Made by a program: the position numbers and the translations under genes | Assembly (NCBI GenBank): GCA_951406725.2 | Contig: OX597816.1 | Span: 108,004,001 to 108,068,000 of the forward strand | DNA from: Octopus vulgaris | Lineage: Eukaryota | Reading direction: 5' to 3' | Length of the DNA: 64,000 bases | Shown: positions 22,325-57,528 of the stretch, piece by piece | Numbering within the stretch: position 1 is the stretch's first letter | Layout: each line of letters starts with the position of its first letter | Notes under the pieces: model-generated | The model's database searches: none | Told to the model about the DNA's origin: nothing | What the model saw: only the letters and a program-made list of their open reading frames with translations

Positions 22325-23614
22325 CGAGGGACGTTCAATAAGTAATGCCCCTGACCCACTTCCCATAGCAGTAGAGCAACGAAACTTGGCACAGTTATTA
22401 GTCTTTTTCTACATAGGAACCACCCAGAGTTACGCATTTCTCCCATTGTTTGATGCAGCTCTGGAGACCGTTTTTGTAGAAGACCCCAGCTTGGTCCTCC
22501 AACCTGAACGTGACTTCAGAAATCAAGGCTGCATCATCTGGGAAACGCTTTCCTTTCAAAAACAACTTCATGACTGGGAAAAGGTGAAAATCAGAGGGTG
22601 CAAGGTCAGGAAAGTAGGGGGATGGGGGAGGAGTTCATAGCCATACGCCAGTGCTTCTGATCTGGCGACAAGCGAGTTGTGGACCGGAGCGTTGTCCTGC
22701 AGGAGGAGGATGCCTTTGCTGATCTTGCCCCGCCTCTTGATTTTGATAACTTATCTTAATTTCCTTAAAAGTGAAGCATAATAGGCTCCTGCAATTGTGG
22801 TACCCTTTTCCAGGAAATCTGTCATCACTACTCCGTCCTGGTCCCAGAAGACTGTGAGCATGACCTTGCCAGAAGAGGGCTGCACCCTTGCCTTCTTTGG
22901 AGGGGGTGAGTCACGGTGCTTCCACTGCATTGACTGGGCTTTGGTCTCTGAATCATCGTGATGGACCCAGGTTTCATCCTGTGTAATCAGTCTTTTGAAA
23001 AATTTTGACTCATCTTCTTGGCACATCTCCAAATTCACCCTCGAGCACTCGACGCGTTCTTGCTTCTGGAAAGGCGTGAGCAACCTAGGAATCCATCTGG
23101 CAGACATCTTTTGCATATGCAAATGGTTATGAATGATAGTTTCCACAGACCCGGTACTAATCTTGACCTCATGGGCTATTTGGCGAATAATTATGCATCG
23201 ATCTTCCAAAATGGCAGCCTCAACTTGACGGACAGATGCCTCATCAACGGCAGAAGGGGCGACCAGATCTGGGAGCTGTTTCCACTGAGTTCCGACCATG
23301 TTTGAATTCACGATGCCAGCGTTTTACAATGTCATATGATGGGGCATCATCACCATAAGTTACTTTCATTTCATCAAAAGTCTCCCGTGGTGTGCGTCCT
23401 TTCAAATACAAAAACCGGATCACTGCTCGACACTCAACAGGCTCCATTTCACACTTGACTCGGTTCAAACACCTGTAAATCAGAAACCACAATTAATTCA
23501 GAGCTGTAATTCGCCACTTACTCTATAGAGATATAAATGATTGCACATACAAAATTTCAGCTAGATCAAACATATGCAAGTGGGTCAGAGGCATTACTTA
23601 TTGAACGTCCCTCG
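22325..23614 (-). mobile_element. Full-length mariner transposon (1290 bp), TA TSD, ~37-bp TIRs
   Basis: TA-cgagggacgttcaataagtaatgcccctgacccactt ... aagtgggtcagaggcattacttattgaacgtccctcg-TA. Confidence 0.97.
22398..23447 (-). pseudogene. mariner DD34D transposase, disrupted by frameshifts and a stop
   Basis: MEPVECRAVIRFLYLKG...RSGRP / WIPRLLT / TQDETWVHH / LQDNAPVH / PDLAPSDFHLF / YVEKD*; stop at 22751, frameshift near 23250. Confidence 0.95.
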
Positions 23615-49166: not shown

Positions 49167-49709
49167 ATTTATATTATATTGAGGGTACTACTATTCGTAG
49201 ATACCAACACGCTAAGAGGGACCAATGCGGTCAAAACTACTAAAAATAAACAAAATTTTACCGAATGCAAAACTTCAAAACACGTCATTTTAAAAAAAGA
49301 ATTCAGTTACATATTACATGTGATTTCGCATTTAATGCAGAATATGCATTTCATGTTCATCAGTGCAACAAACGCAAGAAATATAAGAGAAAACATAACA
49401 TTACAAGCTCGATAGCCAACCGTAGAATTCGTCGTAGCATGTACGAATGTTTATCTTTACATATCTATGAAAATGGCGGGCTTATTCGCAATGCATTTCG
49501 GTTATAAATTGTCAAGTCGGAATAAAAATTCAATATTGAACTATTCCGGTGAAAAATATAAATTAACAATTGAGGATAAAATCTTTAAAAGAAATTATCA
49601 GTAGTCAGCGTGAAAAACCTCGTAAGAGAAAAAATCCGTAAATTCTTCCTCTTTGAAAATATTCATTTATATTATATTGAGGGTACTACTATTCGTAGAT
49701 ACCAACACG
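49167..49709 (-). mobile_element. Retrozyme/Penelope pLTR-like monomer (498-bp period, 45-bp perfect terminal redundancy)
   Basis: atttatattatattgagggtactactattcgtagataccaacacg at 49167-49211 and 49665-49709; internal hammerhead; (TA)n on both sides. Confidence 0.82.
49306..49369 (-). ncRNA. Type I hammerhead ribozyme (slightly mutated)
   Basis: Minus strand: gttgca-CTGATGA-acatgaaatgca tattc tgcattaaatgc-GAAA-tcacatgtaa-TA-tgtaac. Stem I gttgca/tgtaac; near-palindromic stem III. Confidence 0.72.
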
Positions 49710-49730
49710 TAGATACCAACATATATATAC

Positions 49731-49782
<52 letters not shown>

Positions 49783-49785
<3 letters not shown>

Positions 49786-49992
49786 GGAGTTGATTTTTAT
49801 GGCTGATCAGAGAGTGACCTGCAATGAACTTATCAGTATAAGCGACTAGTCAGACTCAATTGGCCGAAGGCGCATAATCTTTCTATGTGCCTTCGGCATT
49901 TGAGACTGACGAGTCGCCTATACGGTTGAACGCTTTATAGGTGCGAAACTAATGGTCACTGTCTGAACGGCCATAACAAGCAAATTCCCATA
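49783..49992. repeat. Imperfect foldback (head-to-head dimer of a hammerhead-bearing unit)
   Basis: Outer arms tatggagttg...gtgacc / ggtcac...cccata; inner arms gtataagcgactagtcag...gccgaaggcgcata / tatgtgccttcggc...ctgacgagtcgcctatac. Confidence 0.85.
49902..49961 (+). ncRNA. Type I hammerhead ribozyme core in the right arm of the foldback
   Basis: gaga-CTGACGA-gtcgcctata...tataggtgc-GAAA-ctaatgg-TC-actg. Strong stem II; stem I mutated here but intact (gagt/actc) in the left arm. Confidence 0.68.
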
Positions 49993-55413: not shown

Positions 55414-57528
55414 ATGTATATATGTATATATGTATATATAAATCATAAATGTATATATGTATATATAAGAAATCTACTAACACAAACAGAAACCGGCTCC
55501 CTAAAAAGAAAAAAAACACTCATCAGGCGCATCAAAAGACTCAACAAAAAAATCAACCAATTAAAATATTCCCACACGCAACATCCACATTCAACAACAA
55601 TGAAAAGACTAGAGCTGGAAAAACTTCATCTGCAGACTAACATGAAAACCTCCATTGAAAATCAAAGAGCTGTGGAGGAACAATGGGTAATCAAAAACAT
55701 CAAACAGAACCCAAAAGTGTTCTATTCTTATGCAAATAAGCATAGAACCACTGTCTCACCTATTGGGCCATTGATTGATGAAAACGGCATTCCCCAACAC
55801 GATGCTAAAGAAATGGCAGAAATACTGCAGAAACAATATTGCTCTGTCTTCAGTGTTCCCACTGATATTGATGTGAGGGAAACGAACGAAGCTGACTCCC
55901 AACACAAAATCGCAGACATAACCTTCACTGCCACCGACATCGTAGCAGCAATAAATGAGGTCAAACATTACTCTGCTGTAGGCCCTGATAGATTTCCCGC
56001 CAGTCTCCTGAAGGAATGTAGATATCAACTTGCAGTCCCTCTGACCAACCTCTGGAGAAACTCGTTAGACGCAGGTTATATACCGAAAAAGTTTCTATCC
56101 CAGTCGGTCATCCCGGTTTTCAAACAGGGAAACAGATCCCTCGCAGTCAACTATCGCCCAATCTCACTCACCTCCCACATCATTAAAGTGTTTGAAAGAG
56201 TGTTAAGATCAAGGATAGCTGACTTCCTGGAGACCCACAAACTCCTAAATTCAAATCAGCATGGCTTTCGCTGTGGCAGGGACTGTCTAACACAGCTCTT
56301 ACACCACATTGAAGATGTACTCAAAGCCTTGGGAACAGGTTCGAACTCTGACGTCATATACCTTGACTTCAGTAAAGCGTTCGACAGGGTAGACCATAAC
56401 ATCCTACTCTCAAAATTGGCAAATGTTGGAATCCGTGGAAAAGTTCTACACTGGATTCAGTATTTCCTAGCGAATAGAACACAACATGTAGTTGATGGAG
56501 TCCACTCAAACCCAGCAAAAGTCACCAGCGGTGTTCCCCAGGGAACTGTTTTGGGTCCGCTACTCTTCATAATTTATGTAAACGACCTTTCCAGTGTCGT
56601 ACATCACTGCAAAGTGAAAATATTCGCTGATGACACTAAGCTCCAGCAAATCGTCAATGAAGAAGCAGACCGAACTCAACTCCAGTCTGACCTATATGCT
56701 GTGAGTCAATGGGCAGACAGAAACAAAATGCAACTGAATGAGGGAAAATTTGAGCTGATGCATTTTGGAAGAAATTCCTCACTAAAACAACCATACTCTC
56801 TTCCTTCAGGGGAACCGCTCACAGCCTCTAACAATATCAGAGACCTGGGTGTAATTGTTGATGACGATCTCAGTTGGAGTGCACACATCAACAAGAAGGT
56901 CGATATAGCTCGTAGGATGAGTTCCTGGATCTTAAGAACTTTCCGGTCCAGAGAACAAGGTGTCATCATACCACTTTTTTCATCCTTTGTACGGCCGCAC
57001 CTTGAATACTGCTGCCCACTGTGGTCTCCTCACACAAGACAAAACATCTCCAGAATTGAGTCACCCCAGAGGGCTCTCACTAAACAAATTGAAGGCATGG
57101 CTGCTCTCGATTATTGGGATCGCCTTAAAGCCTTGAAACTTTACTCCCTCCAGCGTCGCCGTGAGCGGTACATCATTTGTACGATGTGGAAAATATACCG
57201 CCAACTTTGCCCAAACGACCTAAACATTAGCTTCAAGGTTCATCCGAGACTTGGACCACGGGCTATACGTCCCCTGCCAAATTCAAGATCACAACATACA
57301 TGTACACTGCAACATAATTTCTTTTCCTCAACAGGCCCTGCCCTATTTAACATTGTCCCGAGGGAGATCAAAGAGGAAAAGGATCCCATCAACTTCAAAC
57401 AGAGTCTGGATAGATTCCTTCAAAGAATACCAGATAAGCCACCCATAATTGGATACAACTCACCCAACAAGAACTCACTACTTGAACAAAACTGGATACA
57501 ACTCACCCAACAAGAACTCACTACTTGA
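55414..57528 (+). CDS. CR1/L2-group LINE ORF2, 5'-truncated but open: reverse transcriptase plus C-terminal domain, no APE
   Basis: NPKVFYSY, GPD, PVFKQG, NYRPISLTS, QHGF, YLDFSKAFDRVDH, SGVPQGTVLGPLLF, FADD, DLGV, VRPHLEYC. The first ~18 codons are flanking microsatellite; first element ATG at 55600. Confidence 0.93.
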   Translation: MYICIYVYINHKCIYVYIRNLLTQTETGSLKRKKTLIRRIKRLNKKINQLKYSHTQHPHSTTMKRLELEKLHLQTNMKTSIENQRAVEEQWVIKNIKQNPKVFYSYANKHRTTVSPIGPLIDENGIPQHDAKEMAEILQKQYCSVFSVPTDIDVRETNEADSQHKIADITFTATDIVAAINEVKHYSAVGPDRFPASLLKECRYQLAVPLTNLWRNSLDAGYIPKKFLSQSVIPVFKQGNRSLAVNYRPISLTSHIIKVFERVLRSRIADFLETHKLLNSNQHGFRCGRDCLTQLLHHIEDVLKALGTGSNSDVIYLDFSKAFDRVDHNILLSKLANVGIRGKVLHWIQYFLANRTQHVVDGVHSNPAKVTSGVPQGTVLGPLLFIIYVNDLSSVVHHCKVKIFADDTKLQQIVNEEADRTQLQSDLYAVSQWADRNKMQLNEGKFELMHFGRNSSLKQPYSLPSGEPLTASNNIRDLGVIVDDDLSWSAHINKKVDIARRMSSWILRTFRSREQGVIIPLFSSFVRPHLEYCCPLWSPHTRQNISRIESPQRALTKQIEGMAALDYWDRLKALKLYSLQRRRERYIICTMWKIYRQLCPNDLNISFKVHPRLGPRAIRPLPNSRSQHTCTLQHNFFSSTGPALFNIVPREIKEEKDPINFKQSLDRFLQRIPDKPPIIGYNSPNKNSLLEQNWIQLTQQELTT

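What the first reader, a model, noticed from the sequence alone, without database searches (positions are those of the whole stretch)
49167..49735. 498-nt hammerhead monomer with 45-bp perfect terminal redundancy and stutter repeats
Seen: a unit of 1.09 monomers with one hammerhead, followed by partial re-copies (tagataccaaca, tataccaaca) grading into (TA)n. Inference: this is the footprint expected from reverse transcription slightly more than once around a circular RNA, or from a tandem pLTR, with primer slippage at a TA target. The 45-bp repeat seems too long and element-like for an ordinary TSD.
Basis: partly seen in the sequence, partly recalled or inferred. Interest (0 to 1): 0.7.

Follow-up and report, generated by a model that had tools for sequence, protein, structure and literature searches.

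The report
Penelope-mobilised hammerhead retrozyme copy
This is one dead-end copy of a very common protein-free jumping repeat that carries a predicted self-cutting RNA; its 45-base "overlap" is only where this copy happened to stop, and the sister copies suggest that a Penelope-type enzyme copied a likely circular RNA from two fixed start points.

Summary
In detail: 45/45 direct repeat 498 nt apart, a type I hammerhead on the minus strand (predicted cut 49312|49311) and stuttered re-copies into (TA)n. It is not a target-site duplication: 75 of 78 sampled insertions read through that 45-mer as internal sequence. The family (about 2,000 first-look candidates, plus sister subfamilies at 86% and about 73%) has variable 5' ends and two fixed 3' ends about 103 nt apart at (TA)n, the Penelope 'tail' signature, also seen in this genome's RT/GIY-YIG elements. 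All 36 inverted insertions with two canonical ends use one end of each kind. The 45 nt is incidental, and the stutter lies at the end of cDNA synthesis, not at the primer. Repeats within a copy share rare variants (19 of 57 copies), with no inherited repeat-specific differences, so each insertion was copied from one monomer: a circle is likeliest, template jumping is not excluded. No RNA circle, cleavage or autonomous partner was shown. This copy has one ribozyme with a private stem III break. New member of a known kind (non-LTR retrozyme / non-autonomous Penelope-like element).

The parts
49167..49709 (-). The inserted copy: 543 nt = one 498-nt monomer plus 45 nt; 5'-truncated, non-inverted, one ribozyme
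   Evidence: differs from the family majority at 7 of 498 sites
49167..49211 (-). 3' end of the copy at fixed family end A (inferred priming site), running into (TA)n
   Evidence: 33 of 78 main runs end here; junction sequences
49665..49709 (-). 5'-terminal 45 nt: second pass over the same monomer positions; element sequence, not a TSD
   Evidence: 75 of 78 read through it
49306..49369 (-). Type I hammerhead ribozyme motif, predicted cut 49312|49311; A-C mismatch at the base of stem II is family-wide; the change at 49315 breaks a stem III pair and is seen in 3 of 109 passes
49556..49664 (-). 'Tail' of about 103 nt between end A and the second fixed end B (near 49563-49556); internal and unused in this copy
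   Evidence: 43 of 78 main runs end at B
49710..49735 (-). 5'-junction stutter: 12-nt and 8-nt re-copies of the element end with TA between, at 2-3 nt microhomologies
   Evidence: similar re-copies of 8 nt or more in 4 of 33 non-inverted copies against about 1 expected; the same re-copy recurs in locus L027
49144..49166 (.). (TA)n target on the 3' side, behind a (CA)n tract
   Evidence: 73 of 78 copies have a TA/TAA run at the 3' end
49736..49785 (.). (TA)n target on the 5' side; any TSD is hidden in the microsatellite
   Evidence: 25 of 33 non-inverted copies have (TA)4 within 30 nt of the 5' end

Best explanation
The stretch is a 5'-truncated copy of a high-copy, non-coding 498-nt hammerhead repeat, likely pasted into a (TA)n microsatellite by a Penelope-type reverse transcriptase/GIY-YIG endonuclease working in trans on a likely circular monomer RNA. 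Shown: two fixed 3' ends, variable 5' ends, TA targets, tandem repeats that share copy-specific variants, one end of each kind in inverted copies, a covarying ribozyme fold. Inferred steps: copies with two ribozymes are transcribed, cut twice and ligated to a 498-nt circle; the enzyme cuts both strands of (TA)n and primes one cDNA at site A and one at site B, usually on the same RNA; each cDNA runs a variable distance, past one lap by strand displacement; the cDNA 3' ends are joined to each other (inversion) or to the target by microhomology, at times with stutter. Here the A-primed cDNA ran 543 nt, slipped back twice and was joined to (TA)n. With one damaged ribozyme this copy is predicted to be a dead end.
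For: Ends: 76 of 78 main runs stop at A (33) or B (43); 5' ends spread over the monomer. Inversions: 45 of 78, all head-to-head; 36 of 36 with two canonical ends are A+B; sister subfamily 13 of 13 (four look like duplicates of one event), old subfamily 3 of 3. The genome's RT+GIY-YIG families show the same two-end, (TA)n pattern, as in PMC8557442 and PMC11167929. Single-monomer origin: repeats within a copy differ at 1.18% against 2.10% between copies; 19 of 57 copies carry a rare non-CpG variant in both repeats, 15 distinct sets, chance about 0.4 sites; repeat-specific differences are not inherited (5 same-polarity pairs, 7 opposite, 5.0 expected). 120 of 122 passes through the cut site have no indel. 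Arms of 9 inversions share variants, two of them seen in no other copy. Ribozyme core nearly invariant, with double-sided changes in stem II across subfamilies.
Against: No RNA circle, cleavage or strand-specific expression was shown (contigs only, RNA status a guess). No autonomous element with a homologous terminal repeat was found in the GIY-YIG loci examined. The young family has an A-C mismatch at the conserved 10.1-11.1 pair (33 of 47 aligned motifs unpaired there), so cleavage may be weak; 8 of 9 predicted Xenopus retrozymes did not cleave in vitro, and PAc transposed in vitro without cleavage. Arrays are short (longest 1,217 nt). With CpG sites included, same-polarity differences were borderline in excess (11 against 6.2, p 0.051). 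5 rare variants were discordant between arms, and L018 has arms from two subfamilies. The 78 insertions are the best-scoring hits of four queries, biased to long young copies.
Confidence: 0.55

Rival explanations
1. Same Penelope-type insertion, but from a linear, terminally redundant RNA: the RT reaches the RNA 5' end and jumps by homology back to the repeat at the 3' part (retrovirus-like strand transfer), regenerating tandem copies of one monomer without a circle.
For: Explains shared variants and seamless junctions equally well; stutters show that the cDNA end realigns readily; PAc uses uncleaved RNA in vitro; 12 arms stop in the 19 nt just 3' of the cut against 2 in the 19 nt just 5' of it (post hoc), a hint of some linear cut RNA.
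Against: Does not explain why ribozyme structure is kept with compensatory changes across subfamilies at about 73% identity; no pile-up exactly at the cut (3 of 114 within 5 nt, 2.5 expected); related retrozymes are found as circles in coral, mussel and axolotl.
Confidence: 0.25
2. Colinear copying of linear multimer transcripts from a few homogenised master arrays (satellite-like), or fragments of the tandem pLTR of an unseen autonomous Penelope element.
For: Truncated PLE ends give the same insertion geometry; long arrays could be collapsed in the assembly; only 40 of 2,007 candidates were scored in the dimer search.
Against: 15 distinct rare both-repeat variant sets in 57 copies imply many sources; no array over 2.4 monomers among top hits; no shared ORF-side flank in 8 upstream flanks tested or ORF joined to any family locus; three subfamilies keep the monomer-tandem layout.
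Confidence: 0.15
3. The 45-bp repeat is a true target-site duplication or a local duplication of host DNA.
For: Perfect identity and terminal position; retrozyme TSDs are said to be larger than 4 bp.
Against: The 45-mer is internal element sequence in 75 of 78 insertions on many contigs.
Confidence: 0.01

Closest known systems
Metazoan non-LTR retrozymes (Cervera and de la Pena 2020, PMC7229834; Li, Clavereau and Pollet 2026, bioRxiv 10.64898/2026.07.22.740005)
   Same: Non-coding, low-GC tandem monomer with one type I hammerhead per unit, short palindromic stem III, dispersed monomers and dimers, structured monomer (z -3.4), co-occurs with PLEs; circle plus PLE mobilisation is their proposed model.
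   Different: Monomer 498 nt (150-450 in the 2020 paper, within the 51-972 range of the preprint); no long arrays seen; extended, internally looped stem II with A-C at 10.1-11.1; fixed two-site ends and shared-variant evidence are not in the passages I read; no homologous PLE pLTR found here; circles not shown here.
EN+ Penelope-like element insertions: partial tandem pLTR, inverted 5'-truncated copy, tail at one end (PMC8557442, PMC3846280); PAc with two internal RT start sites (PMC11167929)
   Same: Two alternative 3' ends downstream of the ribozyme, head-to-head inversions, tail on one end only, AT/(TA)n targets, 5' truncation with microhomology.
   Different: No ORF; tail about 103 nt against 30-40 nt; the one-tail rule is strict here (36 of 36) where the papers say 'often' or 'optionally'; the PAc study saw no difference in start site between strands in vitro.
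Non-autonomous Chlamys elements such as MRC1 (PMC8557442)
   Same: Non-autonomous, multicopy head-to-tail, PLE-mobilised.
   Different: Those resemble an autonomous family at their 3' ends and belong to a clade reported to lack canonical hammerheads; here no autonomous homologue was found.

Membership tests
non-LTR retrozyme | Type I hammerhead motif in each unit | tested here: met
   90% of cells paired, core nearly invariant, double-sided changes at three stem II pairs between subfamilies (related sequences, so few independent events)
non-LTR retrozyme | Head-to-tail non-coding repeats of a few hundred nt, with copies holding two ribozymes | tested here: met
   29 of 78 main runs hold two complete motifs; no coding frame (one search lists only a microsatellite-driven frame here). 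The window's own copy has one.
non-LTR retrozyme | Self-cleavage in vitro | not testable with these tools
   A-C at 10.1-11.1 and the private stem III change are cautions
non-LTR retrozyme | Expressed as monomeric circular RNA | tested here: inconclusive
   assembled contigs only, RNA status guessed; a 'goes back 498' joint is also what genomic tandems give
Penelope-mobilised non-autonomous element | Two fixed 3' ends (tail) with variable 5' ends | tested here: met
   76 of 78
Penelope-mobilised non-autonomous element | Inverted 5'-truncated copy with the tail at one end | tested here: met
   45 of 78 inverted; 36 of 36 A+B
Penelope-mobilised non-autonomous element | AT-rich / (TA)n target | tested here: met
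   73 of 78
Penelope-mobilised non-autonomous element | Terminal repeat homologous to an autonomous RT+GIY-YIG element of the host | tested here: inconclusive
   none in 30 short and 35 longer PLE loci drawn from 148 listed GIY-YIG matches of 6,136 candidates
Autonomous Penelope-like element | RT + GIY-YIG ORF | tested here: not met
   no PLE ORF in or joined to the copies
Target-site duplication | Repeat is locus-specific host sequence | tested here: not met

The most novel reading that the evidence does not exclude
The family is a fossil record of the Penelope transposition cycle: a dimeric RT/endonuclease cuts both strands of (TA)n and obligately primes two cDNAs at two different sites (A and B) of one ribozyme-made 498-nt circle, each able to roll past a full lap. 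This would give genomic proof of the circular template proposed for retrozymes and PLEs, and one mechanism for partial tandems, inversions and the one-sided tail.
Probability: 0.4. Interest if true: 0.62.

Novelty: new member of a known kind. Interest (0 to 1): 0.36.

Why it matters
The copy itself is ordinary. The family matters because how Penelope-like elements and animal retrozymes regenerate tandem copies is still open: circles are proposed (PMC4209133, PMC7229834) but not shown to be the template. A young family with many sources gives two simple tests from genomes alone (variants shared by both repeats; strict A+B ends) and a short non-coding substrate for an in vitro test with the genome's intact 781-aa PLE protein.

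Tried and rejected
Rfam: no hammerhead hit. TSD reading: rejected; a search for ordinary TSDs in 33 non-inverted copies gave one weak 8-nt candidate inside TA-rich flanks. Autonomous partner: GIY-YIG search, fetches and sensitive blastn found only unlinked sister-subfamily copies or AT-rich noise; PLE fragments near family loci were unlinked. Pairing of sites A and B (they are reverse complements over 8 nt): appears when the segment is folded alone but has probability 0 in the full circular fold; not used. Pile-up of 5' ends at the cut: not seen (3 of 114); the step 12 against 2 (p 0.013; 12 against 5 on the other side, p 0.14) is post hoc and sits on a T run. Lower variant rate in the ribozyme core within the young family: not clear (12/1257 against 585/47994). 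Expression: no RNA holder listed on record; 4 of 24 runs laid, contigs only. Duplicates were dropped before counting: 120 loci reduced to 78 unique insertions; positions 407-420, 46, 47, 149 and run ends were excluded from variant counts; 9 of 45 inversions had a non-canonical end and are outside the 36.

Full report
Observation. The 45-bp repeat, its 498-nt spacing and the stutter are as described. The hammerhead lies on the minus strand at 49306-49369 with the predicted cut at 49312|49311. Rfam misses it. I number the monomer in ribozyme sense, m1 = 49709. In this sense the copy starts at m1 beside the stutter, runs one lap and ends at m45 in (TA)n.

Family. The window lies in a 2.8-Gb animal genome (octopus-like by my recall of its repeats, no call shows this). 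The 543-nt query gave 1,726 first-look candidates, 40 scored, 97-99% identical. Three more queries gave 120 loci in all, 78 unique insertions after removing repeats of the same locus. This sample favours long, young copies. Main runs end at site A (m37-52) in 33, at site B (m145-158) in 43 and elsewhere in 2; 5' ends are spread over the monomer. 73 of 78 have a TA or TAA run at the 3' end, and 75 of 78 read through the 45-mer as internal sequence. So the repeat is not a TSD, and its length is where this copy's synthesis stopped.

Penelope signature. 45 of 78 insertions are inverted, all head-to-head. In 36 both outer ends are canonical, and all 36 pair A with B (0.5^36 if independent; non-inverted copies split 16 A, 17 B); 9 have a non-canonical end. 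A sister subfamily (86%) gives 13 of 13, four of which look like duplicates of one event, and an older one (68-75%) 3 of 3. The genome holds at least three RT+GIY-YIG families, one with many intact 781-aa frames; their copies also end at two sites about 30 nt apart in (TA)n. Craig et al. (PMC8557442, passages) and Arkhipova et al. (PMC3846280, passages) describe inverted copies and a 30-40-bp tail often at one end only. Frangieh et al. (PMC11167929, parts 1-2 of 4) show that the tail is the interval between two internal RT start sites, that the protein cuts both strands at AT-rich DNA and is predicted to be a dimer. I infer that A and B are priming sites and that each cut strand uses one. No PLE with a homologous terminal repeat was found, so the mobilising family is unknown; the 103-nt tail is longer than any I saw.

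Stutter. It sits at the 5' junction, where the cDNA 3' end was joined to the target. Re-copies of 8 nt or more occur in 4 of 33 non-inverted copies (shuffled pairing: mean 1.0, maximum 4), and the same re-copy between two CG dinucleotides recurs in L027. Slippage by the RT or by microhomology repair (recalled, not looked up) would both give this.

Template. Repeats within a copy differ at 174 of 14,713 sites (1.18%), copies from each other at 2.10%. Non-CpG variants in both repeats: 59 common, 24 rare and 12 seen in one copy only; in one repeat: 7, 38 and 108. 19 of 57 copies with at least 60 doubly covered sites carry a rare both-repeat variant, in 15 distinct sets; chance gives about 0.4 sites. 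One-repeat differences do not recur with the same polarity more than chance (5 pairs, 7 of opposite polarity, 5.0 simulated; with CpG 11 against 6.2, p 0.051). The sister subfamily shows 6 both-repeat variants in 909 sites. So repeats are remade from one monomer, from many sources; plain copying of linear multimers would pass on repeat-specific differences and would shrink with each round. 120 of 122 passes through the cut site have no indel, and 5' ends do not pile up there. The two arms of 9 inversions share 21 variant sites, two unique to that insertion; 5 rare variants are discordant, and L018 joins two subfamilies. A ligated circle fits best; homologous jumping on a redundant linear RNA and gene conversion are not excluded.

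Ribozyme. In 47 distinct motifs from three subfamilies 90% of cells pair, the core is nearly invariant and three stem II pairs swap on both sides between subfamilies (few independent events). The family's stem III region is a 12-nt palindrome, suited to the dimeric form described in PMC4209133 (parts 1-2 of 4). The young family has A-C at 10.1-11.1; the window copy also breaks stem III at 49315. A monomer cut to cut from L016 folds better than all 100 shuffles (z -3.4). Cleavage and circles were not shown; the run search and contig laying were uninformative.

Known and new. This is a non-LTR retrozyme in the sense of PMC7229834 (passages and Discussion) and of the 2026 preprint (parts 1-3 of 5), which propose circles and PLE mobilisation. 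Searches listed no paper on this family, on a strict A+B rule or on shared-variant evidence; I read no supplements, and subscription journals and Repbase are not covered, so absence from print is not established. Unchecked notes of this scan reach the two-site idea for similar repeats; they are not independent support.

Verdict. Observation confirmed, interpretation partly supported. An ordinary dead copy of a known kind of element, in a family with useful mechanistic traces. Interest 0.36.

Noticed in passing
window 49786-49990 (+): A second, unrelated hammerhead-like motif (core at 49906) inside a short inverted element whose arms form a long hairpin (49836-49923); an older family, about 80% between copies, 400 first-look candidates. 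Likely an inverted Penelope-type end sharing the same (TA)n.
   Followed up: partly
L091:2245-4590 and at least 15 further 781-aa frames: A young autonomous RT+GIY-YIG family with intact frames, two 3' ends and a variant hammerhead-like motif in its terminal repeat; a ready source of protein for an in vitro test.
   Followed up: partly
L018:2045-2460: Inversion whose arms come from two different subfamilies (97% and 79% to the window copy) yet still end at B and A, with a stuttered junction: possibly two RNAs in one event.
   Followed up: partly
L142: A 117-nt copy consisting only of the tail (B back to A); several other copies (616-619 nt) also have their 5' end at site A, one lap further.
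   Followed up: no
window 55414-57528 (+): 704-codon frame with RT motifs of a LINE-type element, unrelated to the finding.
   Followed up: no
window 22751-23323 (-): 190-codon frame that resembles a mariner-type transposase fragment (by recall).
   Followed up: no
   Followed up: no
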